Below, piece by piece: positions 2,095 through 54,241 of a stretch of 64,000 nucleotides of DNA. Source of the stretch: Candidatus Kaiserbacteria bacterium (lineage in GTDB: Bacteria > Patescibacteriota > Minisyncoccia > Phycocordibacterales > UBA918); the NCBI GenBank assembly GCA_020428795.1, contig JAGQME010000001.1:24178-88177 (forward strand). The letters run 5' to 3'. The notes beneath the pieces were generated by a model that saw nothing but the letters and a program-made list of their open reading frames with translations, was not told the DNA's origin and did no database searches. The number at the start of each line of letters is the position of its first letter. Position 1 is the stretch's first letter. The position numbers were made by a program, and so were the translations under genes.

Positions 2095-4506
2095 CTAGTA
2101 ATCAATGCTGGTAACGACATTACCAATATGGGCTAACACATGCTCTTTGCCATCTTTATCAAAATACCGAGCATCGTATGTTGTTGCTCCGATTTCGGGC
2201 TTACTTGAGACAGGTAGTGCAAATTCGGTCTGATTTGTAGCGTTTTCTACAAACTGTAAGATTAAACTTTTTGCTTTTGTAGCGTCAGCATTACTGCGCA
2301 CAATCTCATTAGATTCATCAGTCAGCACTACACGTTTGTTCGGATTTTGGATGTAATCAGAAGCTAGTATTTCCATGACCTGATCGTTATCGTTCTCCTT
2401 GATCCAATCGGGTAACCTGTCGAAATGTTCCCAATCAGCAATATTGTCAACTCTAGGTATGAAGACTAGTACATTTTGAGGTTCTTCCATTTCTCCTTCT
2501 GCACTTTTGAAACGTTGCGTTCGTCCATCTTTGAGATAGGTATATACAGAACCTTTGGCTGTTGTAATAGATTTTGGTACCTTAACTTCCTCGACCTCAT
2601 CTTCTGTTGTTTGAGTTTCAGGTTGATTCGGTTGTTTTTGTAGTTGTTTCCATTGGCTAAAATTACCGTCCATGTATGCCCAGAAGGCAGTTCTGTCGGT
2701 TAGCGTTTCTTTTGGAAAACCTACTTGTTCAAGAGCGCCAGGATATTGTTGTTCATAAACTTGATTAAGTTTGAAAATATCATTTTGATTTCGAGCCCGA
2801 ATCCATGGAACCACTTCGCTTTCAACTATTAACATTGACTGCTCTCCATTCTCTGTTTCAAAAGTTTCAATGGTTCCAATTATAAAACCACGATCAATTT
2901 TATCTTGCCAATCCGCAGTCTCTTCTTTATTGGCTGTAATCTTTTTGTATGGATATTCGGTACGAAAAATTTCAGCAGGCATTTTTTCAAGTCCGCTAGC
3001 TTTAACTCCAGCAACTCGGTGCGTACCGTCAAAGACAGAATAAATTGGTCCGGCTGGGCCTTCATAACTAGCCAGCTTAATTCTATCTCCTAGTTTATCT
3101 TCCGTATGGAAAATTCTTTCAACCCCGGCTTCATTTTCTGGGTTATTTATCTGGTCAACAATTTCTCCAATTCGACCTTTTCGTTCATTATACTCATGTG
3201 CCCATCCATCCTCATAATTATCAGCATTTGGACGACCAATTATTTTTTCAGTAGCAACCAACTCAAATGAGCCTTTATCAGCACGTGAAGGTTCAATATC
3301 ATAGAAACTTCTTGTATCAATAATAGGCTCGGCTTTTAACTTTTCATAGTCTGGTTCAGTATTTAAAGTTCCAGTAGCTTTTTCTGTTTGAATGTAGTTC
3401 ACAACACTGCTCTTACTGATTTCTTCGGTATTATTGATGATTGCTTCAACTTTCTCTTGATTTAATTGCTGTTGATCATTCGTAAGACTTTCGGTTATTA
3501 TACCCTCAAACGATTCTCTTGGCGTTTGAGTGATTTTGTCAGCGGGTGTTTCAGTTGAAGTGGGGTCTTCGGGTGATGGGTCATTCTGCTCATTTTTGAT
3601 ATCTGGAGCATTTGTTACCAAGCGTTCGTAATAAGCACTTTTTTGCGGAAATCGGTCACTAAATAATTTAATTGCTGTTTCTTCAGGGTTGTAATTAACA
3701 TTCCGTTTAAATAAACGATCATCATCGCTATTATATGTATCAGCTTCTCTCAGGCAGGCGGCAAAATCAGGGTCTTCTTTGATTGAGTTGGGTAATTCTT
3801 CATCAGTCACTCCACCAGCCATAATCGCATCTATTTGAGATTGAATCATTTCACGTTCTTTTGCTAAGGCTTCAATCTTTATTTTTTCTTGCGTTAACAC
3901 TTCGTAGCGATCTGACACTCCATTCATCTCAATCACCACATCCCGTCGGTTTAGTTTCAAGCGATCAGAGTCATCAGCTTCAATCATGGCATTTATTTCG
4001 TCTAACTCGCTTTGAAGTTTCTCTGTTGCTCGGTGGTTGCGTTCTAATCGTTCATTAAAACTTGCCTCTTGTTTGTCGAAGGATAAGAGTCTGTCTCGCA
4101 AGCTAGCTGTTTTACCGTCTAACACCTGCCCAGCAATAAAACTTTTTATGATCTCGTCCTTTTTATCCGGAGATTTTGGGTCTGCTTTGATAATATCAAT
4201 ATCAAGTTTGCTGCTGGTGATTCTGTGCTCTGCTTGATTGATTCGATTTTGTATTTCTGGTAGACGGTATTCAAAATGCGACGGCTCCGTTGTATTCGTG
4301 TCTTGCCACCTCTCCAGATCTATCAAGGCAGCATCTCGGTTAATTTCTGATAGACGAACTCCTTCTTCAAGAGCTTCAATACGTTCCTTTTTAGTATCTT
4401 CAATAGTTAAATTTCCAGCCTCAATCTTTTCTTTAGTACCAGGATTTTCATTCTGATTATTCTTTTCAATTGATGGTGTGGCGGGATTTTCAAATTCTTT
4501 TTGCAT
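2095..4506 (-). CDS. Large hypothetical protein: N-terminal coiled-coil/acidic half and a C-terminal region carrying a ParB/sulfiredoxin-like nuclease motif
   Basis: 803 aa, no signal peptide. N-half is low complexity and rich in E/K/D/Q with heptad-like character. Motif YSVFDGTHRVAGVKASGLEKMPAEIF (about aa 440-465) resembles the DGxHR...A core of ParB-like nuclease/Srx-fold domains. Starts 40 bp downstream of tRNA-Ala on the same strand. Confidence 0.5.
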   Translation of the reverse strand: MQKEFENPATPSIEKNNQNENPGTKEKIEAGNLTIEDTKKERIEALEEGVRLSEINRDAALIDLERWQDTNTTEPSHFEYRLPEIQNRINQAEHRITSSKLDIDIIKADPKSPDKKDEIIKSFIAGQVLDGKTASLRDRLLSFDKQEASFNERLERNHRATEKLQSELDEINAMIEADDSDRLKLNRRDVVIEMNGVSDRYEVLTQEKIKIEALAKEREMIQSQIDAIMAGGVTDEELPNSIKEDPDFAACLREADTYNSDDDRLFKRNVNYNPEETAIKLFSDRFPQKSAYYERLVTNAPDIKNEQNDPSPEDPTSTETPADKITQTPRESFEGIITESLTNDQQQLNQEKVEAIINNTEEISKSSVVNYIQTEKATGTLNTEPDYEKLKAEPIIDTRSFYDIEPSRADKGSFELVATEKIIGRPNADNYEDGWAHEYNERKGRIGEIVDQINNPENEAGVERIFHTEDKLGDRIKLASYEGPAGPIYSVFDGTHRVAGVKASGLEKMPAEIFRTEYPYKKITANKEETADWQDKIDRGFIIGTIETFETENGEQSMLIVESEVVPWIRARNQNDIFKLNQVYEQQYPGALEQVGFPKETLTDRTAFWAYMDGNFSQWKQLQKQPNQPETQTTEDEVEEVKVPKSITTAKGSVYTYLKDGRTQRFKSAEGEMEEPQNVLVFIPRVDNIADWEHFDRLPDWIKENDNDQVMEILASDYIQNPNKRVVLTDESNEIVRSNADATKAKSLILQFVENATNQTEFALPVSSKPEIGATTYDARYFDKDGKEHVLAHIGNVVTSIDY

Positions 4507-4546
4507 ACATTACTTATAATACACCCAGTCACTCGCCTCGTTCGCT

Positions 4547-4620
4547 TGGTGGACTCACGGGGAATCGAACCCCGAATTTATCCATGCCATGGATACGTAT
4601 TACCACTATACTATGAGCCC
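4547..4620 (-). tRNA. tRNA-Ala (anticodon GGC), CCA encoded
   Basis: Reverse complement GGGCTCATAGTATAGTGGTAATACGTATCCATGGCATGGATAAATTCGGGGTTCGATTCCCCGTGAGTCCACCA folds as a cloverleaf. Acceptor GGGCTCA/TGAGTCC has the G3:U70 Ala identity pair. D-stem GTAT/ATAC; anticodon loop ATGGCAT; T-arm CGGGG-TTCGATT-CCCCG. Confidence 0.85.
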
Positions 4621-12174: not shown

Positions 12175-12246
12175 GCGCCTGTAGTGAAATGGATATCACA
12201 ACTGACTTCGGATCAGTTATTCTGGGTTCGAGTCCTGGCAGGCGCA
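12175..12246 (+). tRNA. tRNA-Arg (anticodon TCG), CCA not encoded
   Basis: GCGCCTGTAGTGAAATGGATATCACAACTGACTTCGGATCAGTTATTCTGGGTTCGAGTCCTGGCAGGCGCA. Acceptor GCGCCTG/CAGGCGC; D-stem GTGA/TCAC; anticodon stem ACTGA/TCAGT with loop CTTCGGA; T-loop TTCGAGT. Confidence 0.8.
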
Positions 12247-12295
12247 CAATATTAAATCCCCCTTTTAAAAGGGGGATTTAATATTGTGCGCCTGC
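12238..12295. terminator. About 25-bp perfect palindrome that incorporates the 3' acceptor strand of tRNA-Arg
   Basis: GCAGGCGCACAATATTAAATCCCCC-TTTTAAAA-GGGGGATTTAATATTGTGCGCCTGC; the left arm begins inside the tRNA, and the core is the same AAATCCCCC/GGGGGATTT motif as the hairpin at 10588. Confidence 0.6.
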
Positions 12296-12383
12296 GAAAA
12301 AGTCTGGGAGGCTGTTTTGATAGGACTAGACAAGGTGTATCGAAACTGTACCGAGTGTTATTTAACAATGTATAATAATATTA

Positions 12384-12703: not shown

Positions 12704-14515
12704 TTAGGACACCAAATTTTTTGACCAAGCTTTTACAATATTTTGTATGTTGGCGATCCAGTCGTCAGAATTATTAACTTCACCAATACTATCAACAATT
12801 TTATCTATTAAGATCTTTAGGTTATTGTGGTTAAACTGCTTGTTCTCTTCTCGCAGTTGTTTGAGTGTTTTTAATAATTCAATAAATTGCTTGATGGTGA
12901 GAGGGGCGATTTTTTGCTTTTGGCCTTTATAACCAACGGTATTCGCAATATAAAAAGTCTCAGCACTGTCAGTGTGAATTGTAGGGGCTAAGAAGACACA
13001 ACGGGCATTATCGTGCTTGTTTTCAAAATCACGTAAGTGTCGCATGACGGGTTGTCCCTCATTAAACCATTGGTCACGGCCGTTTAACATTGTGACCTCA
13101 CAGATCATATTAAAGCTATTGTAGAAACATTCAATGTCAGCCAAGCCACCTGGTGCGGTTGAAGTTGGTTGATTGTCGTCACCGACTGGGTAATTTGGTT
13201 TGATTTCTTTTGCGTCGTTTAGGGCGTACAGTCCCATTGTTGTTAGGTATTCAAGCATTAAGGCTCGATTTTCTAGTTCAAATATTTTTTCTAGTTGCTC
13301 GATGTAATCAGTAATTGATGAAATTGGTTGTGATTTGAGACGATTATTTTTTTCTTGTAAATCTTTACGTATCAAGCGTAAATTACTGATATGTAACGCT
13401 AGATCATCTTCAGTCATGGCGGATATAGCCGGCTGTTCATCAACTGTTAAACCAAGTTCGCTTTGCAATTCGATTACATTTTGATAGAGAGTATTGGCAA
13501 TTTCCGACAATTTATCTTTAGTATGCCAAGGTAAAATAGGTTGATTATCATCAGATAGATAGGTTAAATAAGCTTTTTTATCTACAAATTGTTTGGGTTT
13601 ATAGAATTCACTTTCAAATAAAGCTTCAATCTCAGTGTGTCGATTAGGTTCTAGGTCAATGTAGAAGCCATTACCTCGAATACGAACAAAACTGGTTAGA
13701 CGAAAGTATCTAATCGCATTATCACCGTAATCTTGCAGGTTTGTAATGAGTTTATTAATTTTTGCTTGATTACCAGTTCCTAAGAAATTAGTAATGAATT
13801 GTTTACGATATTTATCACGTATTTTTTTGCGTTCGGATTTCGTCTTGCCATTTTGTAGGTTGCGTAATTCGATTATTTTTCTTGCGTAGGACTCAATATC
13901 AGTATATTTAACCAAAGATGGTACAAAGAGTGAAAATTCCCCCTTGCTAATCCCCTTCGCCTTCTGTCCTTGTTCCATCTCCAATCTATTGACGGTGCTG
14001 ATTAGCTTTAAAGTAGCCACAAAAGGCACAGTCCCGTAATTACCATCGTTAGTAAATTCATTACTAGCTGGATTAGGTATTTGCCATTTAATAAATGATT
14101 TTAAGAACACTTCACCGGTGTTTTGGTCATCTTTGATCAGTTTTTTACCCAGCTCGGTTATCTTTAAAATTCCGTTATCAATAATCACAAAGCCAAACTT
14201 AGTGAGCGGGTTTAACGATTGGCGACCCCGCATCGAAAAGTCGGTGTAATTTTTTAATCTGAGAATCCTATCAATCGTTTCGTCATTAATTTCTAAGTCG
14301 GTGTCATTTATATTATTGATGATGTCCGGAGTTAATCCATTATAAAATTGCGTGTTGCCAAAGCCATAAAGTCTGTTTTTTATCAAAAGTTTCTGATAAT
14401 TGGCTTGATTAGCCTTATCCCAAGGCTTATTTTCAAGTAATTTAGTCACCACCAAAAAATCACGGAGACGTTCTGGGTTTCTGACCGTTGTTGTGATAGA
14501 CCAAGCTTTTAGCAT
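12704..14515 (-). CDS. Type IIS restriction (or nicking) endonuclease, AlwI / N.BstNBI / PleI / MlyI family
   Basis: 603 aa. Segments NPLTKFGFVIIDNGILKITELGKKLIKDDQNTGEVFLKSFIKWQIPNP, AIRYFRLTSFVRIRGNGFYIDL and MLNGRDQWFNEGQPVMRHL...CVFLAPTI match the conserved blocks of the RE_AlwI family as I recall them for N.BstNBI. Adjacent to a two-domain methyltransferase. Confidence 0.72.
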   Translation of the reverse strand: MLKAWSITTTVRNPERLRDFLVVTKLLENKPWDKANQANYQKLLIKNRLYGFGNTQFYNGLTPDIINNINDTDLEINDETIDRILRLKNYTDFSMRGRQSLNPLTKFGFVIIDNGILKITELGKKLIKDDQNTGEVFLKSFIKWQIPNPASNEFTNDGNYGTVPFVATLKLISTVNRLEMEQGQKAKGISKGEFSLFVPSLVKYTDIESYARKIIELRNLQNGKTKSERKKIRDKYRKQFITNFLGTGNQAKINKLITNLQDYGDNAIRYFRLTSFVRIRGNGFYIDLEPNRHTEIEALFESEFYKPKQFVDKKAYLTYLSDDNQPILPWHTKDKLSEIANTLYQNVIELQSELGLTVDEQPAISAMTEDDLALHISNLRLIRKDLQEKNNRLKSQPISSITDYIEQLEKIFELENRALMLEYLTTMGLYALNDAKEIKPNYPVGDDNQPTSTAPGGLADIECFYNSFNMICEVTMLNGRDQWFNEGQPVMRHLRDFENKHDNARCVFLAPTIHTDSAETFYIANTVGYKGQKQKIAPLTIKQFIELLKTLKQLREENKQFNHNNLKILIDKIVDSIGEVNNSDDWIANIQNIVKAWSKNLVS

Positions 14516-14536
14516 GGTCTGATTATGGCATAAAAG

Positions 14537-16525
14537 CTAATAATTAGTAATAAGTACCTCTACGGTCTTGTTATTTTTAGCGCTGGAGTGATAGTTGGAA
14601 TTTTTGTAATGATAATCCAATTTATGGACTTGGTAATTATGTTCTTTGGCCCATTTCTTTATTATTTTGTTAACATCGCCTTTATGTTCTAAGACGTTTG
14701 ATAGAGCAAATCTTACCTTTTTCTCGTCCAGTCTAGTCAAAAGTGAATAAAGATCCTTCTCATCCTTTTCAGTCCAGCCCCCCATTTCATTATAGCTAGC
14801 TAGACCCAATAGATAAGGTGGATCTAGGTATACAAAATCATCTTTATCCAACTTAATAGTTTCAATATCACGAAAATCTCCATTTTTAAAGGTTATTGTC
14901 TTTTCATTTGATATTTGGTTAAAAGCCGCTACGTTTTTTCTAGAACTGCCATTGTAGTCTCGTTTACCGACTGGCAGATTAAAATCACCGCTCGAATTAA
15001 ATCTTATTTGGTTATTAAAGGCGTATAAAACCAGCACTAACAGTAAATCAATCTGAGTTTTGTCTTGATTAAACTCATTACGGAGTTTTAGAAAAGCTTT
15101 TTTATTGTATTTTCCTAAACCTACTGAGCTATCAGCTTTATAGTGGTCGTAACCTTTGATATAGCTCTGACTTAAGTTAAAACGCTGAATGATATTAATT
15201 ATTTTCTGGTTCAGATCTTCAAAATTGTTGTTTTGAATCAATTTTAACAAGTTAACAACGTTATGATTTTTTTCGACACAGACTATATTTTGGGCTGTGG
15301 CATTAATACCAACGTTTGCACCACCGGAAAACACATCATAAAAAGTCTTAATGTCATCGGGAAAGAATTTTGTGATTTGCGGTAGAAGTTTGTGTTTACC
15401 ACCGGTGTAATTTAACGGCGATTTAACAAAACCACTTTGGACAGGGTTGTTTCTTGAAGCCATTATTTTCCGGCTTGAATTTGAAGAGACATTTACTTTG
15501 CACAAAAATATACGTTCCTTCAGATCATCTTTATTGGATTTACCGGTGGTAAATTGTCTAAAGTTAGTTTCAAAAACCTTTGTCTCTCCTCGTCTTTTTA
15601 AGGCTGATAGTATTTCATGGTCACTAATTCTCGACTGTGATCTCACATTTCCAGCTGTACCCATATCGTTATAAGAAACAAGAATGTATTTAGCTTTGAT
15701 GTTATCTATCAAATCACCAAAAGCAACCCCGGCCGATTTCATGTTGTATTTACTTTTGATGTGCGAACGGTCCATTTTTTTAGCAACTCCAAAAACCGCC
15801 CCTTTTTTCCAGGTAGCAATATTTTCTAGTAAATGATAAGCATCGGAATACTGTCTCGAATTATACGGTGGATCAATATAAACAATGTCGGCTTCTATTT
15901 TTTTTACCAATTCATTAGCGTCTTCTTTGTATATTTCAGTTAGACGAGTAGATTTTTTTAGTTCTAGAGGCAATAGAAAAAGCTTCTTTTCGGGAATGTC
16001 TATTTTTCTATAGGCGTCATAATGACCAACAGTGTTAGCGATTTTATCTAAGGCGTAAATTAACGATGTTATTAGATAGGCTTTCTCTCGGTAAGTGATT
16101 ACCTTTTTTTTAAATAATCCTTCAATATCGTCCCTAATAAAGCCTATTTTCTTAGCGTTTTCAGCGTCAAAATAAGTGTTAGAGAAGTTTTTAGAGAAGT
16201 AATTTTCTGGGTATTTTTGGGCTATTATATTGTTATAATACTTTAGTTTTTCTCTTAATTTTTTTTCTTGTATTTTGTCTTTACCAAAAAAAGCGGTGTA
16301 TACATAAGAATTTGAGTCCAAAATATCGTTTACGATAATTTTAGATTGATCATAAAAGTGATTGGCCACGGTACCGGTACCGGCAAAAATATCAGCAAAT
16401 GAATCAAATTTTATGTTTTCATCTCTTATTATTTTGTCTATAAAAGATAGAAGTTTGGTTTTAGAACCAAGATAGCGTCTCTGGGCCAGGTTAACCTTTT
16501 TATTTCCAAAATAGGCATCTTGCAT
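14537..16525 (-). CDS. Fused two-domain N6-adenine DNA methyltransferase (two Dam/D12-class modules), type IIS modification enzyme
   Basis: 662 aa with two copies of motif I + motif IV: FADIFAGTGTV ... VYIDPPYNSRQY and FYDVFSGGANVG ... VYLDPPYLLGLASY. Tandem MTase modules are typical for asymmetric type IIS sites. Confidence 0.85.
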   Translation of the reverse strand: MQDAYFGNKKVNLAQRRYLGSKTKLLSFIDKIIRDENIKFDSFADIFAGTGTVANHFYDQSKIIVNDILDSNSYVYTAFFGKDKIQEKKLREKLKYYNNIIAQKYPENYFSKNFSNTYFDAENAKKIGFIRDDIEGLFKKKVITYREKAYLITSLIYALDKIANTVGHYDAYRKIDIPEKKLFLLPLELKKSTRLTEIYKEDANELVKKIEADIVYIDPPYNSRQYSDAYHLLENIATWKKGAVFGVAKKMDRSHIKSKYNMKSAGVAFGDLIDNIKAKYILVSYNDMGTAGNVRSQSRISDHEILSALKRRGETKVFETNFRQFTTGKSNKDDLKERIFLCKVNVSSNSSRKIMASRNNPVQSGFVKSPLNYTGGKHKLLPQITKFFPDDIKTFYDVFSGGANVGINATAQNIVCVEKNHNVVNLLKLIQNNNFEDLNQKIINIIQRFNLSQSYIKGYDHYKADSSVGLGKYNKKAFLKLRNEFNQDKTQIDLLLVLVLYAFNNQIRFNSSGDFNLPVGKRDYNGSSRKNVAAFNQISNEKTITFKNGDFRDIETIKLDKDDFVYLDPPYLLGLASYNEMGGWTEKDEKDLYSLLTRLDEKKVRFALSNVLEHKGDVNKIIKKWAKEHNYQVHKLDYHYKNSNYHSSAKNNKTVEVLITNY

Positions 16526-16696: not shown

Positions 16697-17359
16697 ATGG
16701 TTCGAGATGAAAAAAAGCTAGAAATGGCAACGTATTATCGCAAGCGGGGTTTTTCTTATTCTGAGATAGCTAAAATAGTGGGAGTTTCAAAAGGTACAGT
16801 GAGTGCTTGGCTTAGTAAAAAATCCTTTTCAAAGAAGATAAAAACAGAAAATATCGCCCGTTCAGCTAAAGATAGCGCTACTCGACTGAGGTTGATTAAT
16901 TCAGCTCGCTATAAAGAACGTAGTAAGTTGTATGCACAAACCATAAAAGATGCTAAAACCCAATTTAAGCTCTACAAAAAAGACCCGCTATTTATCGCTG
17001 GCCTAATGCTCTACCGTAGCGTTGGGGCCAGTAAAGATGAAAGATTGATTAGGGTCACTAACTCAGAGTTAGATATTCATCGGATATTTATTAAGTTTAG
17101 TAAGACTTATTTAGGAGTAGAAAAAGACCAGATCAAGTTTTGGCTCCTGCTCTACCCTGATTTAGTTGAGAAAAGCTGTGTTAATTATTGGTCTAAAGGC
17201 TTAAAACTAAAATCTGCTCAGTGGTATAAAAATCAGGTTGTTTCTGGGCGAAGTAAAAAACAAACATTGCTTTATGGAGTTGGAAATACTATAATCGGAG
17301 GCACTGTTTTAAGGTTGAGGTTGATCACTTGGGTGGAGTTAGCTTTAAAAGAGTTGTAG
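16697..17359 (+). CDS. Hypothetical protein with N-terminal helix-turn-helix
   Basis: 220 aa; FSYSEIAKIVGVSKGTVSAWL is an HTH (sigma region-4/resolvase-type); the remainder is basic with no recognisable domain; lies between the R-M genes and tRNA-Gly. Confidence 0.4.
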   Translation: MVRDEKKLEMATYYRKRGFSYSEIAKIVGVSKGTVSAWLSKKSFSKKIKTENIARSAKDSATRLRLINSARYKERSKLYAQTIKDAKTQFKLYKKDPLFIAGLMLYRSVGASKDERLIRVTNSELDIHRIFIKFSKTYLGVEKDQIKFWLLLYPDLVEKSCVNYWSKGLKLKSAQWYKNQVVSGRSKKQTLLYGVGNTIIGGTVLRLRLITWVELALKEL

Positions 17360-17377
17360 GTACAATTAAATATAAAT

Positions 17378-17448
17378 GCGGCCATGGTTAAGTGGTATAA
17401 TGAGTCCTTGCCAAGGATTAGTCGGGAGTTCGATTCTCCCTGGCCGCA
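17378..17448 (+). tRNA. tRNA-Gly (anticodon GCC), CCA not encoded
   Basis: GCGGCCATGGTTAAGTGGTATAATGAGTCCTTGCCAAGGATTAGTCGGGAGTTCGATTCTCCCTGGCCGCA. Acceptor GCGGCCA/TGGCCGC; anticodon stem AGTCC/GGATT with loop TTGCCAA; T-arm GGGAG-TTCGATT-CTCCC. Confidence 0.88.
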
Positions 17449-17451
17449 CAA

Positions 17452-17480
17452 AGAAAAAAGACCTCCAAGGGTCTTTTTTT
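17452..17480 (+). terminator. Intrinsic terminator directly after tRNA-Gly
   Basis: AAAAAAGACCTCCAAGGGTCTTTTTTT. Confidence 0.55.
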
Positions 17481-17600
17481 GACTGTGGCCAGGGGCGTAG
17501 CTTTGTGCATACAAAGCGTTGCGCAGAATCGAAAAGCTTTTGTGATACTTTTGAGCTTTACAGCGAAAAAGTATCCAAAAGGTGTACAGAATCTGTAAGA

Positions 17601-17621
17601 TTCGATTCTCCCTGGCCGCAC
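17601..17621 (+). repeat. 21-nt perfect direct repeat of the 3' end of tRNA-Gly(GCC), T-loop through discriminator
   Basis: TTCGATTCTCCCTGGCCGCAC is identical to the tRNA 3' end. Upstream segments TGTGGCCAGGGG (17485-17496) and GAATCGAA (17526-17533) are complementary to it. Confidence 0.85.
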
Positions 17622-17630
17622 CCAATCAAT

Positions 17631-17664
17631 CAAACCCGCCAAAACAAGTGTTTTGGCGGGTTTG
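17631..17664 (+). terminator. Intrinsic terminator closing the tRNA-Gly trailer module
   Basis: CAAACCCGCCAAAACA-AGTG-TTTTGGCGGGTTTG, perfect 14-bp stem. Confidence 0.65.
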
Positions 17665-17777
17665 ATTACGTGTGTGTAATCAAAATTTTTTTGCTTAAAT
17701 ATAACCACTATTACAAAATATCAGTATGATATAATGTTATATCATACTGAGGGTTGATTGGTTTTTTATCATAAATT

Positions 17778-21123: not shown

Positions 21124-21292
21124 CCATTGGCTTTTTACACTATTGGTGATATTATTTTGCCCATGAAATGATGTTTAGTTTGGGTTGTAAGCAAGCTTCC
21201 GCCCTCTCTTCACTCGGTCATGTTGTGCAAATTTGTTTAGAGACTGTTTGAATAAGTATTTCACTCAACTAGAGCAGTCTAGGAGACTATTT

Positions 21293-21363
21293 CGGGGTGT
21301 AGCATAGTGGTAGTGTACGCGGTTTGGGACCGTGTGGTCCGGGTTCGATTCCCGGCTCCCCGA
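21293..21363 (+). tRNA. tRNA-Pro (anticodon TGG), CCA not encoded; acceptor stem has one T-T mismatch and the D-stem is short
   Basis: CGGGGTGTAGCATAGTGGTAGTGTACGCGGTTTGGGACCGTGTGGTCCGGGTTCGATTCCCGGCTCCCCGA. Anticodon stem CGCGG/CCGTG with loop TTTGGGA; T-arm CCGGG-TTCGATT-CCCGG. Imperfect acceptor and D arms lower confidence. Confidence 0.7.
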
Positions 21364-21364
21364 C

Positions 21365-21406
21365 AAATTATAATACCCACAGGATTTCCTGTGGGTATTA
21401 TAATTT
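21365..21406 (+). terminator. Perfect 19-bp-stem hairpin directly after tRNA-Pro
   Basis: AAATTATAATACCCACAGGA-TTT-CCTGTGGGTATTATAATTT. Confidence 0.65.
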
Positions 21407-21492
21407 TCGCTAGGGAATCGAAGCCCGATTGAGCTATTTTGAGAACGAAGTGAATCAAAATAGCCAATTGGGATACTGTTCGTGTTGCGAAA

Positions 21493-21513
21493 GATTCCCG
21501 GCTCCCCGACAAA
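21493..21513 (+). repeat. 21-nt perfect direct repeat of the 3' end of tRNA-Pro, T-loop through trailer
   Basis: GATTCCCGGCTCCCCGACAAA is identical to 21343-21363 plus 3 trailer nt. Upstream GGGAATCGAAGCCCGA (21413-21428) is an inverted, slightly mutated copy of the T-arm. Confidence 0.85.
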
Positions 21514-21600
21514 AAATAAGACAAATACAATAAGATCTTCTTTCTTAGAAAGGTTTTTATTATATCGTTGTACTAATGGTGGTGATATAATGGCCGTATT

Positions 21601-32178: not shown

Positions 32179-32200
32179 TTGTGCGGGTGAGAAGAATCGA
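32179..32200 (-). repeat. 22-nt perfect direct repeat of the 3' end of tRNA-Gly(TCC), T-loop through trailer
   Basis: Plus-strand TTGTGCGGGTGAGAAGAATCGA is identical to 32394-32415. Plus-strand TTCGATTCTTC at 32309-32319 is the inverted partial copy. Confidence 0.85.
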
Positions 32201-32395
32201 TTACCTTCGCATTAGTATATTCATCGGCTAACGCCTCGAATATACTGTGCTACGCAACCCCGACGCTCGAATCGACCTCGCTTCGCTTTGGTCGATATAC
32301 TCGCTCTTTTCGATTCTTCACGTGAGCAAAAACGTTTGCTTATTTCACCCTCCCAACCAAAAACGGGCGCACTTTCGTACGCTCATTTTTGTTTG

Positions 32396-32466
32396 TGCGG
32401 GTGAGAAGAATCGAACTCCCGACTACTGCTTGGAAGGCAGTCGTTTTACCACTAAACTACACCCGC
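32396..32466 (-). tRNA. tRNA-Gly (anticodon TCC), CCA not encoded
   Basis: Reverse complement GCGGGTGTAGTTTAGTGGTAAAACGACTGCCTTCCAAGCAGTAGTCGGGAGTTCGATTCTTCTCACCCGCA. Acceptor GCGGGTG/CACCCGC; D-stem GTTT/AAAC; anticodon stem ACTGC/GCAGT with loop CTTCCAA; T-stem has two G-U pairs. Confidence 0.8.
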
Positions 32467-42529: not shown

Positions 42530-44284
42530 ATGCGTATTCAAGATGAACAACTAAAACGATTTATAGGCGACGCTGGTCTGGTTAGTAAAAAAGATATCGC
42601 TGAAGCGGAGAAAGTAGCTAAGGAGGAAAAGAGAACTCTGGCTGAAGCTTTGATTGCGTCTGGAACCATGACTGAAGACGATATGCGTCGAGTAGAGTCT
42701 TATGTGTTAGGTATCCCTTTTGTTTCTCTCAAAGGAGTTAAGGTGGATTTTTCCATATTGTCATTAATACCAGAGCCGGTAGCTCGCAACCACAATATTA
42801 TTGCTTTTAAAAAGAACGAAGAGTCGTTGGAAGTAGCTATGCTAGATACTGCTGATTTACCAGCGATAGATTTCATAAAGAAAAAAGTTGGACTAAAAAT
42901 ATTGCCCCGTCTAACTGATACAGAGTCAATGAAATCGGCTCTTTTGCAGTATCAGAAAACTCTCAAAGATGAATTTGGTGACCTAATAATGAAAGAAACA
43001 TCGGCTTTGAAAACTATTGCCGAAGATACCGGTGAGGAAGCTACTGAAGAAGATCTAAAGAAAATGGCCGAAGATTTGCCAGTGGTCAGAATAGTGGATA
43101 CCTTATTGAGGCACGCTATTATTCAAGGTGCTTCTGATATTCATATTGAACCTATGGAGGAGTCTGTTTTGGTGCGTTATCGAATCGACGGCATCTTGCA
43201 CGATGCCATGACTTTACCTAAAAACGCCGCTCCTACCATAGTGGCTAGATTAAAAGTTTTATCAAATCTCAAACTCGATGAAAAAAGATTGCCACAAGAT
43301 GGCCGGTTTAAGATGGAAATGGATGGCCAAAAAGTTTCCTTCCGAGTTTCGATTCTACCAATTTTCTTCGGTGAGAAAGTAGTAATGCGTTTACTGCGAG
43401 AAAATCGTTCTGGTTTTACCTTAGAAGGAATTGGTTTTCACGGTTCTTCTTTAGAAAGGTTGCAAGATGCCATGAAACAAACCACTGGCATAATTTTGGT
43501 AACGGGACCAACTGGTTCTGGTAAAACTACCAGCCTCTATACCGTGCTGGATCTACTTAATACCCCAGAAGTAAATATTTCTACTATTGAAGACCCGGTC
43601 GAATACCAAATGCCTAGAATAAACCAGACCCAAGTTAAATCGGAGATCGGTTTTACTTTTGCCACCGGTTTGCGTTCCTTAATGCGTCAAGACCCAGACA
43701 TTATTATGGTTGGTGAGATTCGTGATAAAGAGACTGCCAGTCTAGCCATTAACGCCGCTTTGACCGGTCACTTAGTATTGGCCACTGTTCACACTAATTC
43801 TTCTTCTGGTACGGTGGCTCGTTTGGTAGATATGGGAGTAGAGACATTTTTGCTGGTCTCAACCCTAAGAGTAGCGGTTGGGCAAAGACTGGTGAGGCGA
43901 TTGCGTGAAGACGCTAGAGAACCGTATAAACTTAGTTCTGATGAAAAAAGTGAGTTAGGTAAACACGCTGATATGGATAAGGTTTTGGAGGTTCTAAAAG
44001 AAGAGCAAATTATTGCCAATAATGCTACGTGGAACAGTGTTGATTTTTATCACGCTAAAGATGTGCCAGAGGGGGAAGAGGCCTATAAGGGTAGAATCGG
44101 TATCCACGAAATATTGCCGATGAGTCCATCTATAAAAGAAATGGTTATGTCCGGAGCTACCGCTGATCAAATTCAAGAACAAGGGCGTAAAGAAGGGATG
44201 CTCACTATGCTTGAAGACGGTATCTATAAGGCCGCCAAAGGTTTGACTACAATTGAGGAAGTATTGCGAGTAATTAACGAGTAA
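42530..44284 (+). CDS. pilB: Type IV pilus assembly ATPase PilB / GspE family
   Basis: 584 aa; GSPII_E N-terminal domains; Walker A ILVTGPTGSGKTTSL; Asp/His boxes; tetracysteine-less variant. Confidence 0.9.
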   Translation: MRIQDEQLKRFIGDAGLVSKKDIAEAEKVAKEEKRTLAEALIASGTMTEDDMRRVESYVLGIPFVSLKGVKVDFSILSLIPEPVARNHNIIAFKKNEESLEVAMLDTADLPAIDFIKKKVGLKILPRLTDTESMKSALLQYQKTLKDEFGDLIMKETSALKTIAEDTGEEATEEDLKKMAEDLPVVRIVDTLLRHAIIQGASDIHIEPMEESVLVRYRIDGILHDAMTLPKNAAPTIVARLKVLSNLKLDEKRLPQDGRFKMEMDGQKVSFRVSILPIFFGEKVVMRLLRENRSGFTLEGIGFHGSSLERLQDAMKQTTGIILVTGPTGSGKTTSLYTVLDLLNTPEVNISTIEDPVEYQMPRINQTQVKSEIGFTFATGLRSLMRQDPDIIMVGEIRDKETASLAINAALTGHLVLATVHTNSSSGTVARLVDMGVETFLLVSTLRVAVGQRLVRRLREDAREPYKLSSDEKSELGKHADMDKVLEVLKEEQIIANNATWNSVDFYHAKDVPEGEEAYKGRIGIHEILPMSPSIKEMVMSGATADQIQEQGRKEGMLTMLEDGIYKAAKGLTTIEEVLRVINE

Positions 44285-44288
44285 TAAA

Positions 44289-45515
44289 ATGCCTACTTTT
44301 ATTTATCATGGTAAAGACGATAAAGACATAAAGGTTTCTAAGACTGTTGAAGCCACTGACCGTTATGCAGTTTATGAAATTGCCCGCAACAATGGACACA
44401 CGGTCACTTCAATTGATGAACAAAAGAAACATTCACTTAAAGCCATCTTTAATATCCAACGACTAGAGTATCTGATGAGTCGGGTTAAAGATGATGAGCT
44501 AGTCATGGTGACTAGAAATTTAGGTTCCATGTTGGTGGCTGGCTTACCTCTCTCTAGAGCTTTGTCGGTGATTGAGAGACAGAGTAAAAACCCTCGGCTT
44601 AAAGGGGTGATGAGTGATATAAGAGAAAAAATAAACGAAGGTTCGCAATTTTACGAGGCTTTAGAGGCTTATCCTAAGGTATTTAGTAATCTGTACATAG
44701 CAATGGTCAGAGCAGGAGAAGAAAGCGGCGGTCTTTCAGAAGCTCTAAAAACCCTAAGTGTTCAAATGGAAAGATCTTCTAATTTAAAGAAGAAGATTAA
44801 AGGAGCCATGATTTATCCAGCGATTGTGATTGTTATCTTGGTTATTATTGGAATCTTAATGATGATTTTTGTTATGCCTTCCATCACTGGTACCTTTAAA
44901 AGTCTAGATGTCGAGCTACCGACTACGACCAAGATCCTAATCACTGTTAGTGATTTTATGGCGGCTAATACCGTAGCAACCCTGATCGGACTGATTTCTT
45001 TTGTGTTGGGCGGAATTTATTTTTTGAGAACCAAAGCTGGTCATATCACTACTTCATATATTATTCCTAAATTGCCAGTTATCGGCAAAATAGCCAAAGA
45101 AGTAAACGCCGCTCGCACCTCAAGGACCCTATCTTCTTTGTTGTCGTCTGGGGTTGATGTGATTCGGGCCTTAAATATCACCGAAGAGGTGGTACAAAAT
45201 GTTTTTTATAAAAAAATTATTGCGGAGGCGGCCGTTAGAGTTGAAAAGGGTACACCACTTTCTGAGGTGTTTATTGAACGAGAAGATTTGTATCCGGTTT
45301 TGGTGGGGGAGATGATCTTGGTGGGTGAAGAAACCGGAGATATTTCTCACATGCTACATGAACTAGCTATTTTTTATGAAAATGAAGTGGAACAAAAAAC
45401 CAAGGACCTCTCGACTATTATCGAGCCGATACTGATGGTGGTGATCGGTGGAGCAGTTGGTTTCTTTGCTCTCGCTATGATTGCTCCGATCTATTCTATT
45501 GGCGATAGTATTTAA
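44289..45515 (+). CDS. pilC: Type IV pilus inner-membrane platform protein PilC / GspF family
   Basis: 408 aa, duplicated GspF domains, three TM segments, ends ...IAPIYSIGDSI. Confidence 0.9.
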   Translation: MPTFIYHGKDDKDIKVSKTVEATDRYAVYEIARNNGHTVTSIDEQKKHSLKAIFNIQRLEYLMSRVKDDELVMVTRNLGSMLVAGLPLSRALSVIERQSKNPRLKGVMSDIREKINEGSQFYEALEAYPKVFSNLYIAMVRAGEESGGLSEALKTLSVQMERSSNLKKKIKGAMIYPAIVIVILVIIGILMMIFVMPSITGTFKSLDVELPTTTKILITVSDFMAANTVATLIGLISFVLGGIYFLRTKAGHITTSYIIPKLPVIGKIAKEVNAARTSRTLSSLLSSGVDVIRALNITEEVVQNVFYKKIIAEAAVRVEKGTPLSEVFIEREDLYPVLVGEMILVGEETGDISHMLHELAIFYENEVEQKTKDLSTIIEPILMVVIGGAVGFFALAMIAPIYSIGDSI

Positions 45516-45519
45516 TCTT

Positions 45520-47310: not shown

Positions 47311-47325
47311 ATTAGTGTAAAGTTT

Positions 47326-47940
47326 ATGTTTAACAAAATTTTCTTAAAAAGAGGCATGACATTAGTTGAAATGATGGTAGCAGTTAGTTTGTTTTCCATT
47401 TTGACATTAGTAGTCACTAGTAGTATTAACGCAATGTATCGTTACAACTCTTACACCTTCGCTCAAGCCTATCAAGTACAAAACGCTCGCCTTGGTATGC
47501 AGTCTTTGATTCGTGATGTGCGAGAAATGACCTTTGCTGATGATGGTACTTTTCCGCTAGCTATCATGGAGGAAAATAAAATTGCTTTTTATAGTGATAT
47601 TGATAGAGATAATAGTGTTGAGTATGTAGAGTTTTCCTACAATGGTACAACAACAATAATTAAAAATGTCTACAATGCAACTGGCAGCCCACTTACATAT
47701 AACCTAGGTTCACCGGACGAAACATATACTCTTTCAAGGTATGTGCAGAATAATATACAGGGAACTTCTACTTTTATGTATTATGATAATGATGGAAATC
47801 AATTATTTTCACCATCTGACATTACTGATGTTCGTTTTGTCCAAGCTCAGATTATTGTAAATATAGATCCGGTTCGTGACCCTGGGCAGTTTATGCTTCG
47901 CTCCAGCGCTTCATTACGTAATGTTAAAGAAAATATATGA
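47326..47940 (+). CDS. Prepilin-type minor pilin / pseudopilin
   Basis: G-MTLVEMMVAVSLFSIL prepilin N-terminal motif; 204 aa. Confidence 0.6.
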   Translation: MFNKIFLKRGMTLVEMMVAVSLFSILTLVVTSSINAMYRYNSYTFAQAYQVQNARLGMQSLIRDVREMTFADDGTFPLAIMEENKIAFYSDIDRDNSVEYVEFSYNGTTTIIKNVYNATGSPLTYNLGSPDETYTLSRYVQNNIQGTSTFMYYDNDGNQLFSPSDITDVRFVQAQIIVNIDPVRDPGQFMLRSSASLRNVKENI

Positions 47941-53824: not shown

Positions 53825-54241
53825 ATGAATAAAATTATTGCTTACACCGATGGCGGAGCGAGAGGTAATCCAGGACCGGCCGGAATCGGAGTTTATATTA
53901 CTGACGAATCAGGAAAGGTTTTAAAAGAAGTAAAGGAAGCGATCGGTAATAGCACTAATAATTTTGCTGAATACAATGCGGTTTTGGTGGCTTTGCAGAC
54001 TCTAAAGCAACTCTATGGCAAAAAATCCAAAGAAATGTCGTTTGAAATCCGTCTGGATAGTGAATTGGTTAAAAAACAATTAAATGCCGAGTATCAGATC
54101 AAAGAACCTGGTTTAGTGCCAATGTTTATTGAAATACACAATCTAAGGGTGGCCAATTTTCCCAACCTAATCCTCACTCATGTTCCCCGTGAAAAAAATA
54201 AAGAAGCCGACCGGTTGGTCAATGAAGCCCTTGATGCCTGA
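53825..54241 (+). CDS. rnhA: Ribonuclease HI
   Basis: IIAYTDGGARGNPGPAGIGVYI ... AEYNAVLVAL ... EADRLVNEA: RNase H type 1 catalytic D-E-D-D pattern. Confidence 0.8.
   Translation: MNKIIAYTDGGARGNPGPAGIGVYITDESGKVLKEVKEAIGNSTNNFAEYNAVLVALQTLKQLYGKKSKEMSFEIRLDSELVKKQLNAEYQIKEPGLVPMFIEIHNLRVANFPNLILTHVPREKNKEADRLVNEALDA

What the first reader, a model, noticed from the sequence alone, without database searches (positions are those of the whole stretch)
21293..21560. Second instance: tRNA-Pro(TGG) + 19-bp-stem hairpin + inverted T-arm copy + perfect 21-nt 3'-end repeat
The module is arranged in this order:
- tRNA-Pro, 21293-21363;
- a perfect palindrome AAATTATAATACCCACAGGA/TCCTGTGGGTATTATAATTT, 21365-21406;
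- GGGAATCGAAGCCCGA (21413-21428), the reverse complement of the tRNA T-arm with a C/G transposition;
- an internal 10-bp hairpin GCTATTTTGA...TCAAAATAGC;
- GATTCCCGGCTCCCCGACAAA (21493-21513), identical to the tRNA 3' end including 3 nt of trailer.
The identity extending into the non-tRNA trailer (CAAA) argues for a duplication or recombination origin rather than convergent tRNA-like sequence. The tRNA itself has a T-T mismatch in the acceptor stem and a weak D-stem, so the functional tRNA-Pro 3' half might even be ambiguous between the two copies.
Basis: seen in the sequence. Interest (0 to 1): 0.8.

Follow-up and report, generated by a model that had tools for sequence, protein, structure and literature searches.

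The report
Miniature mobile element behind tRNA-Pro
The repeat after this tRNA-Pro gene marks a recently inserted 146-bp non-coding, hairpin-rich element from a large, apparently undescribed family that sits behind about half the tRNA genes sampled in a group of tiny-genome (Patescibacteria) bacteria, and each copy brings its own replacement tRNA 3' end.

Summary
tRNA-Pro(TGG) lies at 21293-21363. A perfect 21-nt repeat of its 3' end lies 146 nt downstream. Between them are a 20-nt-arm palindrome, an inverted T-arm copy and a 10-bp hairpin.

It is not a decaying tRNA. Four near-identical metagenome contigs lack exactly these 146 bp, so this is an insertion/deletion polymorphism.

Two more tRNAs in the window (Gly-GCC, Gly-TCC) have the same architecture, and tRNA-Arg has a decayed copy. 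In related Patescibacteria loci, 32 of 64 tRNAs carry an inverted copy of their own 3' end downstream.

A conserved scaffold motif occurs in at least 120 metagenome contigs, behind tRNAs of 16 amino-acid specificities. Each is followed by a copy of a tRNA 3' end. Its helices covary strongly.

The inverted copy matches the functional tRNA end, not the distal repeat. The unit is therefore [replacement 3' end, terminator, inverted copy, scaffold], and the distal repeat is the displaced old end.

Best reading: a miniature, non-autonomous, tRNA-targeting integrative element, probably active as a folded single strand. The mobilising enzyme is unknown. I found no matching Rfam family, phage, plasmid or paper.

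The parts
21293..21363 (+). tRNA-Pro(TGG), intact. No CCA is encoded. The discriminator is A21363.
   Evidence: ARAGORN. Rfam RF00005 at 61.8 bits. The same gene is found in the empty-site contigs L001-L004.
21347..21367 (+). X1 / DR1: the proximal 21-nt repeat. It covers T-loop G57 to the discriminator plus CAAA and is part of the working tRNA. In the family model it is the element-borne replacement 3' end.
   Evidence: Family evidence that the inverted copy matches the proximal copy.
21368..21513 (+). The 146-bp inserted segment. It can equally be written as 21347-21492, because the breakpoint cannot be placed within the 21-bp repeat. It is absent from L001-L004.
   Evidence: Alignment A1. 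Gene spacing is 332 nt in L002/L003 against 478 nt in the window.
21365..21406 (+). Element-borne terminator-like palindrome: A/T-rich arms, a CCCACAGG/CCTGTGGG core, then TTTT. It is the centre of a larger imperfect palindrome X1-terminator-X'.
   Evidence: The equivalent hairpins in other members carry A-tract/T-tract arms.
21413..21422 (+). X'b: GGGAATCGAA, the inverted copy of the T-loop and T-stem 3' strand. X'b pairs with GATTCCC of X1 or X2 (helix P2).
   Evidence: P2 is 86% paired with covariation at the variable T-loop position across 121 members.
21424..21472 (+). Scaffold Y, a long hairpin. P3 is CCCGATTG/CAATTGGG with a G.T pair. A21432 is bulged. P4 is GCTATTTTGA/TCAAAATAGC. The tip GAGAACGAAGTGAA fits the family motif GA[NN..N'N']GAA.
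   Evidence: Alignment A3 and pair counts. Loop census. Covariance model R1 scores 94.1 bits on + against 21 bits on -.
21473..21492 (+). The conserved single-stranded linker ATACTG, then hairpin P5. Here P5 is atypical (TTCGT-GTT-GCGAA); in the family it is usually 5 bp with a GTA triloop. One A follows before the distal repeat.
   Evidence: P5 pairs covary: 38-48 double changes per position.
21493..21513 (+). X2 / DR2: the distal 21-nt repeat, which is the displaced original tRNA 3' end. It is followed by the native trailer found in the empty alleles.
   Evidence: In older family members this copy diverges while X' still matches X1.
21539..21560 (+). Native tRNA-Pro trailer with a weak hairpin (CTTTC-TTA-GAAAG) and a T-run. 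It is identical in occupied and empty alleles.
   Evidence: Read from the sequence and alignment A1. The terminator function is inferred only.
17429..17621 (+). Sister element behind tRNA-Gly(GCC) 17378-17448. DR 17429-17449 = 17601-17621 (172-nt spacing), with a terminator, a split inverted copy carrying a bulged hairpin, and the same scaffold class.
   Evidence: R1 hit 17522-17615 at 53.2 bits, E = 8.8e-13, not in the training set. Present in L005/L006.
32179..32414 (-). Sister element behind tRNA-Gly(TCC) 32395-32466 (minus strand). The 22-nt DR is 32393-32414 = 32179-32200 (214-nt spacing). It belongs to a different scaffold subfamily, shared with two elements in L007.
   Evidence: Not detected by R1.
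12238..12365 (+). Decayed member behind tRNA-Arg(TCG) 12175-12247. It has a perfect 29+29 palindrome that includes the acceptor 3' strand, a degenerate bulged hairpin, an X'b-like AGGACTAGA, most of the scaffold deleted, and a P5-like GGTGTATCGAAACTGTACCGAGTG.
   Evidence: X1:downstream duplex -29.6 kcal/mol. The assignment is by eye and inferred.

Best explanation
The 146 bp are one copy of a miniature (about 100-230 bp), non-coding, non-autonomous integrative element that targets the 3' part of tRNA genes.

The unit has four parts:
1. X, a copy of the tRNA from the T-loop to just past the discriminator.
2. Its own terminator hairpin.
3. X', an inverted copy of X. In this copy only the T-loop/T-stem part is present.
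4. A conserved structured scaffold: the long hairpin P3/P4 with a GA..GAA tip, the linker GTACTG, and the small hairpin P5.

Integration is a reciprocal (Campbell-type) crossover inside the roughly 13-21 bp that X shares with the resident tRNA gene. The element's X becomes the working 3' end, so the tRNA stays intact and properly terminated. The resident 3' end is pushed 146 nt downstream as a now useless direct repeat, which decays with time.

Shown:
- the anatomy;
- the exact presence/absence polymorphism;
- the family, its tRNA-matched X/X' and its covarying helices;
- that X' tracks the proximal copy;
- tandem accretion of units.

Inferred:
- The element moves as a small circular, hairpin-folded single strand of the tRNA-sense polarity, in which X pairs with X' and so presents the crossover region as duplex.
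- The recombinase is supplied in trans. My preferred candidate type is a tyrosine recombinase acting on a folded site, as for CTX phage attP or integron attC.
- The scaffold is the recognition/assembly module for that machinery.

The confidence of 0.5 is for the whole statement. That it is a mobile tRNA-targeting miniature element of this geometry I put at about 0.85. The specific crossover and enzyme type I put at about 0.4-0.5.
For: Polymorphism. L001-L004 come from three ENA assemblies and one Logan run. They are identical in the flanks and lack exactly the DR-to-DR 146 bp. The Gly(GCC) element is present in contigs from one of the same assemblies, ERZ27309210.

Youth. The DR and the palindrome are perfect. 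Only 3 of 19 related tRNA-Pro genes carry a DR.

Family in related genomes.
- 23 of 65 tRNAs in the related loci plus the window have a DR of at least 14 nt located 99-228 nt downstream. The upstream control gives 0 of 65.
- 32 of 64 have a 3'-end:downstream duplex of -20 kcal/mol or better, against 2 of 64 upstream.

Family in metagenomes.
- The scaffold motif is found in at least 120 metagenome loci.
- 90 of 131 hits have a same-strand tRNA within 700 nt upstream, covering 16 amino-acid specificities. In nearly all hits the motif is followed by P5 and a tRNA 3'-end-like sequence.

Structure.
- 94.2% of cells are paired.
- There are 607 double-sided changes against 187 in shuffles (0 of 500 shuffles reach the observed value). 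Slid controls give 26-52% pairing.
- G.U exceeds A.C 45:22 on the tRNA-sense strand.
- z = -10.45 as ssDNA.

Geometry. X' fits the proximal copy in 25 of 28 informative cases. In tandem arrays each X is followed by its own terminator and matching X' (L050).

Accretion. Arrays of 2 or more units mix subfamilies. L138 has two identical 171-bp units.

Empty tRNAs have plain terminators without X'.

No ORF, integrase, transposase or RT lies in or beside any unit. The only recombinase in the window is Xer-like.
Against: - No enzyme has been linked to the elements, so mobility in trans is inferred.
- One occupied/empty pair cannot separate insertion from precise DR-mediated deletion.
- Excision or circle forms have not been seen. 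A 146-bp double-stranded circle would be very strained, which is why a single strand is proposed.
- It is unexplained how X and X' are re-programmed together for dozens of tRNAs while the scaffold stays the same.
- Mismatches between X1 and X' show no strand bias: 27 against 19. The long palindrome could therefore act as duplex DNA.
- A subfamily has a conserved altered T-loop (CGAAATTCC) in the distal copy, and some units lack any upstream tRNA. Neither follows simply from the model.
- X' matching X1 could also come from arm-to-arm gene conversion within the palindrome rather than from co-transfer.
Confidence: 0.5

Rival explanations
1. Single-strand 'peel-and-paste' or rolling-circle transposition by an HUH enzyme supplied in trans (IS200/IS605 TnpA or RAYT-like, or IS91-like). 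The element inserts 3' of a short motif common to all tRNA T-arms (GTTC / TTCGA) without target duplication. The repeat exists only because the element carries X.
For: - The elements are small and rich in hairpins, with subterminal hairpins at both ends (the terminator near the left end, P5 at the right end).
- There is a strand-specific G.T over A.C excess.
- P4 tips are often GCGAAGC, which I know as a very stable DNA mini-hairpin (own knowledge).
- The repeat boundary falls just after GGTTC of the T-arm in the window copy.
- The right end usually ends in ..TTC before GA.
- Arrays resemble REP/BIME clusters.
- IS91's reported GTTC/CTTG target preference is own knowledge.
Against: - No Y1/Y2 HUH transposase was seen in the window or among recurrent ORF families of 120 loci.
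- In the folded form the shared segment X is base-paired with X', whereas HUH enzymes cut single-stranded sites (own knowledge).
- In the CGAAATTCC subfamily the element-specific sequence extends past the T-loop, so the joint is not always after TTCGA.
Confidence: 0.17
2. A host-beneficial structured RNA gene linked to tRNA genes. It could be an sRNA or tRNA mimic processed from the 3' trailer, or an antisense regulator of the tRNA 3' half. It would spread with partial tRNA duplications rather than as a selfish element.
For: - Strong covariation, conserved loop motifs and a G.U excess on the tRNA-sense strand.
- Folded as RNA, the X'-scaffold-X2 segment gives z = -5.75.
- The fold topology is loosely tRNA-like: a closing helix, a long arm, a short arm and a tRNA 3' tail.
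- The elements are very frequent in reduced genomes.
Against: - The element-borne terminator lies between the tRNA and the scaffold.
- No conserved promoter was found.
- The distal copy X2, needed for the closed RNA fold, is the part that decays.
- Presence is patchy at orthologous tRNAs, and near-identical strains are polymorphic.
- Tandem arrays mix different subfamilies.
- No Rfam family matches even at E <= 10.
Confidence: 0.12
3. A remnant of a large prophage or genomic island that integrated at tRNA-Pro with a tyrosine integrase and later lost almost everything between attL and attR.
For: The direct repeat of the tRNA 3' end from the T-loop onward is the classical att signature (own knowledge). 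One search shows that repeat here.
Against: - Independent deletions would not leave the same 75-100-nt covarying scaffold at more than 120 loci and at all kinds of tRNA.
- Unit sizes cluster at 99-228 bp.
- The DR and palindrome are perfect, which indicates a recent event.
- No similarity to any phage or plasmid record, and none in IMG/VR contigs.
Confidence: 0.04
4. A local replication or repair accident (slippage plus fold-back at the terminator) created a lineage-specific duplication. The empty alleles are the ancestral state or DR-mediated deletions. No mobility or function is involved.
For: The palindrome centred on a terminator and the 21-bp repeats are the kinds of structure such errors can produce (own knowledge). 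Precise loss between 21-bp repeats is plausible.
Against: About 85 nt of the insert (scaffold and P5) has no source in the local sequence, yet it is near-identical to elements at other tRNAs in other organisms. For example, the P4 region differs at only 2 positions from L120 tRNA-Leu. The 146 bp are missing as one block.
Confidence: 0.03
5. RNA-mediated spread. The unit is transcribed, folds as a tRNA-like RNA, is copied by a reverse transcriptase, and the cDNA recombines with the tRNA gene.
For: There is RNA-type covariation with a G.U excess. Precedents for 3' tRNA-like ends used by RTs exist, such as the Mauriceville retroplasmid (own knowledge).
Against: - The repeat carries the genomic trailer (CAAA), not CCA.
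- The palindrome includes trailer and terminator, which points to a DNA-level origin.
- An internal terminator would truncate the RNA.
- No RT lies near the elements. The only RVT_3 hit in the window, at 53825-54241, is an RNase H-type protein.
Confidence: 0.05

Closest known systems
tRNA-gene-integrating islands and prophages with tyrosine integrases (T-loop / 3'-end sublocations; own knowledge of Williams 2002)
   Same: - A direct repeat consisting of the tRNA 3' part from the T-loop to the end.
- An element-borne copy that restores the gene.
- Empty sites in relatives.
- Tandem accretion at one tRNA.
   Different: - Size of 100-230 bp instead of kilobases.
- No integrase or any other gene.
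- A conserved structured scaffold and an inverted copy of the target.
- One scaffold family serves tRNAs of 16 amino-acid specificities.
CIMEs and other integrase-less, att-flanked cis-mobilisable elements; MITE-type non-autonomous elements (own knowledge)
   Same: Non-autonomous, presumably mobilised in trans, and flanked by att-like repeats.
   Different: - CIMEs are deletion derivatives of ICEs, kilobases long and tied to one att site.
- MITEs have terminal inverted repeats and 2-10-bp target duplications.
- Here there are no TIRs, and the repeat is 14-27 bp of tRNA.
Folded single-strand recombination sites: CTX phage attP(+)/Xer (IMEX) and integron attC/IntI (own knowledge)
   Same: - An inverted repeat folds so that a single strand presents a duplex copy of the target site, with bulges or extra hairpins in one arm.
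- Integrated copies accumulate in tandem.
- A Xer-type recombinase is the only recombinase seen in the window.
   Different: The target is a tRNA 3' end, not dif or attI. No link to Xer or IntI has been shown. The elements carry no cargo.
IS200/IS605-derived PATEs, REP/BIME-RAYT elements, and IS91 (target GTTC/CTTG) (own knowledge)
   Same: - Short, hairpin-dominated and strand-specific, with no protein.
- Clustered in arrays.
- A possible short conserved target motif present in every T-arm.
   Different: Those elements do not carry a replacement copy of their target gene or an inverted copy of it. No HUH enzyme was found here.
Tycheposons of Prochlorococcus (own knowledge of Hackl et al. 2023)
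   Same: tRNA-targeted, with arrays of partial tRNA 3' ends left by repeated integration.
   Different: Tycheposons are kilobase-scale with tyrosine recombinase and cargo genes. They have no conserved non-coding scaffold.
IS110/IS1111 bridge (seek) RNAs (own knowledge)
   Same: A structured non-coding module whose variable segments match the insertion target, which suggests programmable targeting.
   Different: Bridge RNAs sit inside an element that encodes its recombinase, use short split guides in internal loops, and leave only a dinucleotide core. None of that was seen here.

Membership tests
Tyrosine-integrase tRNA-integrating element | Direct repeats (att core) made of the 3' part of the target tRNA, flanking the insert | tested here: met
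   The 21-nt perfect DR runs from T-loop G57 to discriminator +4.
Tyrosine-integrase tRNA-integrating element | An unoccupied site with a single core exists in close relatives | tested here: met
   L001-L004 lack exactly 146 bp.
Tyrosine-integrase tRNA-integrating element | An integrase gene inside the element next to the att site | tested here: not met
   The insert is 146 bp with no ORF. None of the 121 aligned units has room for a gene. No integrase lies next to any element. The only recombinase in the window is Xer-like, 20 kb away.
MITE (DDE-transposon derivative) | Terminal inverted repeats and a short (2-10 bp) target-site duplication | tested here: not met
   The ends TTATAAT.. and ..GCGAAA are not inverted repeats. 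The repeat is 21 bp of tRNA.
IS200/IS605 PATE or REP-RAYT element | Subterminal hairpins on one strand and no target duplication | tested here: inconclusive
   Hairpins lie near both ends, and there is a strand-specific G.U excess. The repeat can be read as element-borne rather than as a duplication.
IS200/IS605 PATE or REP-RAYT element | A cognate Y1 HUH transposase or RAYT in the genome | tested here: inconclusive
   None was found in the 64-kb window or among recurrent ORF families of 120 loci. The rest of the genome was not available.
IMEX / CTX-type or integron attC-type folded site | A single strand folds into a hairpin that reconstitutes the duplex target site | tested here: met
   X pairs with X' across the terminator. 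Downstream duplexes of -20 kcal/mol or better occur at 32 of 64 tRNAs against 2 of 64 in the control.
IMEX / CTX-type or integron attC-type folded site | The site resembles dif (Xer) or carries R/L boxes with GTTRRRY (IntI) | not tested
   The dif site of this lineage is unknown. GTTCGAA does not fit GTTRRRY, judged by eye.
Known RNA families (Rfam 15), including ribozymes, tmRNA, Y-RNA-like and group I introns | A match to a curated covariance model | tested here: not met
   Only tRNA passes. Nothing relevant appears even at E <= 10 on 21280-21570 and 17370-17700.
Group I intron in Patescibacteria tRNA genes (10.1101/2025.07.03.662931) | The intron interrupts the tRNA (anticodon loop 35/36) and has a group I core | tested here: not met
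   The tRNA is uninterrupted, the insert lies after it, and there is no group I hit. The paper was read.

The most novel reading that the evidence does not exclude
The inverted copy X' (with or without its bulged hairpin), together with X, works as a programmable guide. In the folded single strand (DNA or RNA) it displays or mimics the tRNA gene's 3' end. A sequence-independent machinery supplied in trans, recruited by the conserved scaffold, then integrates the element wherever the guide matches. This would be a protein-free, re-targetable integration cassette that has been re-programmed for essentially every tRNA, and a new mechanism class alongside bridge RNAs and folded att sites.
Probability: 0.15. 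Interest if true: 0.92.

Novelty: new variant of a known kind. Interest (0 to 1): 0.75.

Why it matters
Patescibacteria (CPR) have some of the smallest bacterial genomes and are thought to be poor in mobile DNA. Yet about half of the tRNA genes sampled in this lineage are followed by these 100-230-bp structured units, sometimes several in tandem.

If they are mobile, they would be among the smallest integrative elements described. Their design keeps the host gene intact by supplying a replacement 3' end and a terminator. They pair one conserved scaffold with target-matched segments for tRNAs of 16 amino-acid specificities, which hints at modular, possibly programmable targeting.

There are practical consequences too:
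- The elements explain partial tRNA 3'-end copies and long palindromes behind tRNA genes in these assemblies.
- They are strain-level presence/absence markers.
- They point to an unidentified recombination activity, possibly a host Xer-type enzyme acting on folded DNA, that could be looked for experimentally.

Tried and rejected
- **Rfam.** Scans at gathering and at E <= 10 thresholds found only tRNA. The weak sRNA/miRNA hits are hairpin noise.
- **Phage and plasmid databases.** No match in the phage (INPHARED) or plasmid (PLSDB) collections. Two scaffold patterns gave 0 hits in IMG/VR viral contigs. The elements are therefore not a phage attP that I could find.
- **Enzyme search in the window.** Pfam/NCBIfam annotation of about 55 window ORFs found one Xer-like recombinase (1013-1993). 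It found no integrase, transposase, HUH enzyme or RT near any element.
- **Enzyme search by neighbourhood.** I clustered 1285 ORFs from 120 element-bearing loci. The recurrent families are ordinary syntenic genes: YqgF-like, tRNA-binding, PilM-like, YraN.
- **The HTH protein.** It always sits just upstream of tRNA genes and looked promising. It is present whether or not an element is there, so I rejected it as the mobilising enzyme.
- **Strand test on X1/X' mismatches.** No significant bias, 27 against 19.
- **Hammerhead, other small ribozymes, K-turn.** I compared by eye only. The GA..GAA tip resembles the hammerhead stem-II flank, but CUGAUGA is absent. Rejected.
- **T-T mismatch as a sign of pseudogenisation.** Rejected; it is conserved in 19/19 relatives.
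- **Literature.** Eight full-text searches found no description. The closest hit concerns group I introns at tRNA position 35/36 and is unrelated.
- **More occupied alleles.** A look-up through the upstream gene gave no informative contig. No records exist for the proteins flanking the Gly(TCC) element.
Full report
**Observation**

- tRNA-Pro(TGG) lies at 21293-21363 (ARAGORN; Rfam 61.8 bits).
- The 21-nt string GATTCCCGGCTCCCCGACAAA occurs at 21347-21367 and again at 21493-21513. No further copy appears with up to 3 mismatches, and none is expected by chance.
- Between the copies are a 20-nt-arm perfect palindrome (21365-21406), an inverted copy of the T-arm (21413-21428, 88%) and a perfect 10-bp hairpin (21433-21464).
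- As a single strand, 21347-21513 folds at -42.8 kcal/mol with DNA parameters, z = -10.45.

**It is an insertion/deletion polymorphism**

The CorA protein just downstream is encoded on four metagenome contigs from other samples (L001-L004). Aligned with the window, their flanks are identical apart from one SNP. They lack exactly the 146 bp from one repeat to the other, leaving tRNA-Pro followed directly by the trailer that follows the distal repeat in the window. ARAGORN calls the same tRNA-Pro in them.

The distal repeat is therefore the native 3' end and trailer context, and the 146 bp are extra. The repeat and palindrome are perfect, and only 3 of 19 related tRNA-Pro genes carry such a repeat. 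I take this as a recent gain, although a precise repeat-mediated loss in the other strains cannot be excluded from one pair.

**It is one of several in the window**
- tRNA-Gly(GCC) 17378-17448 has a 21-nt repeat of its 3' end 172 nt downstream.
- tRNA-Gly(TCC) 32395-32466 (minus strand) has a 22-nt repeat 214 nt downstream.
- Each insert starts with a terminator-like hairpin. It then has an inverted copy of its own tRNA's 3' end, split by a small hairpin in the two Gly cases. Structured sequence follows, then the repeat.
- tRNA-Arg(TCG) has a perfect 29+29 palindrome that includes its acceptor 3' strand, followed by degenerate remains of the same layout.
- The Gly(GCC) insert is present in contigs from one of the same assemblies where the Pro site is empty.

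**It is a family**

The organism is a Patescibacterium of the Paceibacteria/Kaiserbacteria type. The closest species representatives share about 64% CorA identity and the same local tRNA synteny. In those 21 loci plus the window:
- 23 of 65 tRNAs have an exact repeat of at least 14 nt of their own 3' end 99-228 nt downstream. None has one upstream.
- 32 of 64 have a strong duplex between the 3' end and downstream sequence, against 2 of 64 for upstream sequence.
- Presence is patchy for any given tRNA.
- tRNAs without an element have plain A-tract/hairpin/T-tract terminators and no inverted copy.

**The scaffold is conserved and widespread**

The Pro insert shares a conserved scaffold with inserts at Arg and Gly tRNAs of other species. 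It hit no viral contig.
- Of 131 hits, 90 have a same-strand tRNA within 700 nt upstream, 74 of them 20-130 nt away.
- These tRNAs cover 16 amino-acid specificities.
- In nearly all hits the scaffold is followed by a small hairpin and then by a sequence that looks like a tRNA 3' end.

**Structure**

On an alignment of 121 distinct units, the proposed helices are 94.2% paired. They are P3, P4, a 2-bp tip helix, P5, and P2 between the inverted T-loop copy and the distal repeat.
- There are 607 double-sided changes against 187 +/- 10 in shuffles (0 of 500 shuffles reach the observed value). Slid controls drop to 26-52% pairing.
- P4 and P5 covary at almost every position.
- P3 and the linker TACTG are fixed by the search pattern. 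P3 covaries across subfamilies.
- The P4 tip follows GA[NN...N'N']GAA, often GCGAAGC or GCTTGC.
- In the variable pairs, G.U outnumbers A.C 45 to 22. The tRNA-sense strand is therefore the one that folds, as RNA or as single-stranded DNA.
- A covariance model built from this alignment scores the Pro unit at 94 bits on the plus strand against 21 bits on the minus strand. It also finds the Gly(GCC) unit of the window, which was not used for training, at 53 bits, E = 9e-13.
- In the related loci it finds further units behind tRNAs whose distal repeat has already decayed.
- The Gly(TCC) unit belongs to another scaffold subfamily, shared with two units in L007.

**Which copy belongs to the element**

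The proximal and distal copies differ in 28 of 74 cases. In those, the inverted copy pairs better with the proximal, in-gene copy in 25 and with the distal copy in 1. In tandem arrays each copy is followed by its own terminator and a matching inverted copy (L050).

The unit is therefore [3'-end copy, terminator, inverted copy, scaffold, P5], and the distal repeat is the displaced former 3' end. This is the geometry of classical tRNA-integrating elements, shrunk to about 150 bp with no gene.

Arrays of two or more units are common and mix subfamilies. L138 has two identical 171-bp units.

The modules are exchangeable.
- The terminator/inverted-copy module of Gly(TCC) is conserved across five species while the scaffold behind it belongs to different subfamilies.
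- The P4 region of the window's Pro unit is nearly identical to that of a unit at tRNA-Leu in L120.
- The scaffold plus P5 is bracketed on both sides by the palindromic T-loop core TTCGAA/TCGA. This is read from the sequences.

**Mechanism**

What is shown: a block insertion bounded by a tRNA-derived repeat; a family with target-matched segments and a covarying scaffold; accretion of units; and no coding capacity.

What I infer: integration occurs by a reciprocal crossover inside the segment shared with the tRNA. The element acts as a small circular, folded single strand in which X pairs with X', and the recombinase is supplied in trans.

I prefer a tyrosine-recombinase-type reaction on a folded site for three reasons.
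- The crossover segment is duplex in the fold.
- One arm carries bulges or an extra hairpin, as in attC and CTX attP (own knowledge).
- The only recombinase seen is Xer-like.

The main rival is HUH-type single-strand transposition at the T-arm motif GTTC/TTCGA. Neither enzyme class has been tied to the elements. Annotation of the window and clustering of 1285 ORFs from 120 loci gave no candidate.

A host RNA-gene reading is weakened by four observations: the internal terminator, the decay of the distal copy, the patchy and polymorphic distribution, and the mixed arrays.

**Comparison and novelty**

No Rfam family, phage or plasmid record matches. Eight full-text searches found no description. 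The only Patescibacteria tRNA paper found concerns group I introns at position 35/36.

The finding fits the logic of tRNA-targeting integrative elements and of non-autonomous miniature elements. It fails the defining tests of each known family: no integrase, no TIR or short TSD, no HUH enzyme found. I therefore rate it a new variant of a known kind. There is a minority possibility (about 0.15) that the matched direct and inverted segments act as a programmable guide, which would be a new mechanism.

**Unexplained**
- How X and X' are re-programmed together.
- Units with no tRNA upstream (L030, L031, L075, L125, L140).
- A subfamily with a conserved altered T-loop (CGAAATTCC) in the distal copy.
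- The role of the invariant GTAC(T/A)G linker and the GTA triloop.

Noticed in passing
window 16697-17359 (+); homologues in L005-L026, L045, L050, L053, L103, L109, L110, L119, L147: A 220-aa protein with an N-terminal transposase-like HTH (HTH_23/HTH_28) and an unassigned C-terminal ~150 aa ends 10-55 nt upstream of a same-strand tRNA gene in 29 of 35 homologues. The tRNA is mostly Gly-GCC, also Arg-TCG and Arg-CCT. It sometimes occurs as tandem paralogues. It is present whether or not the tRNA carries an element.
   Followed up: partly
window 12175-12365: tRNA-Arg(TCG) is followed by a perfect 29+29-nt palindrome that includes its acceptor 3' strand, and then by what looks like a decayed, internally deleted member of the same element family with no distal repeat.
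   Followed up: partly
window 12704-16525 (-): An AlwI-type restriction endonuclease and a D12-class adenine methyltransferase lie between tRNA-Arg and the HTH gene/tRNA-Gly. In the related loci these two tRNAs lie closer together (about 0.9-4.2 kb apart, against about 5.1 kb here), so this may be an inserted R-M cassette.
   Followed up: no
L031 2540-2900 and 4400-4620; also L030, L037, L075, L095, L125, L140: These are complete units with no tRNA gene upstream. The leftmost 'tRNA 3' end' reads TTCGAAC + 9-10 nt + an acceptor 3' strand. In L031 it starts about 35 nt from a divergent gene start.
   Followed up: partly
L138 (minus strand) 2540-2960 versus L105: Two identical 171-bp units lie in tandem behind tRNA-Leu(CAA) in L138. 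In both L138 and L105 the last distal repeat is followed by the same native trailer; the number of units in L105 upstream of that repeat was not checked.
   Followed up: partly
L070 about 200-370; L140 about 2800-2890: The small 'bulged' hairpin that splits the inverted copy contains a further insertion of roughly 65-125 nt in these two loci. It may be a hotspot for nested insertions.
   Followed up: no
L011, L012, L015, L017, L032 (tRNA-Gly-TCC); window 21433-21464 versus L120 and L063: Modular exchange. The terminator + inverted-copy module is conserved for one tRNA across species, while the scaffold behind it belongs to different subfamilies. Conversely, near-identical scaffold hairpins sit at different tRNAs. 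The exchangeable scaffold is bracketed by the palindromic T-loop core TTCGAA on both sides.
   Followed up: partly
window 21298/21359 and all tRNA-Pro(TGG) genes in L007-L026: The U6.U67 mismatch in the acceptor stem of tRNA-Pro(TGG) is conserved in 19 of 19 genes, while pair 5:68 covaries (G-C to A-T). It is a lineage feature rather than damage.
   Followed up: yes
window 4480-4550 (minus strand), just after tRNA-Ala(GGC): The trailer AGCGAACGAGGCGAGTGAC resembles the 3' part of another scaffold subfamily (..GCGAAC..GTGAC). It may be a remnant. There is no terminator before the next gene.
   Followed up: no
window 42530-49370 and 55121-56737: Type IV pilus/secretion genes (T2SSE, T2SSF, a pilin-like protein) and ComEC are present, consistent with natural DNA uptake as single strands. 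This could matter for how the elements spread.
   Followed up: no
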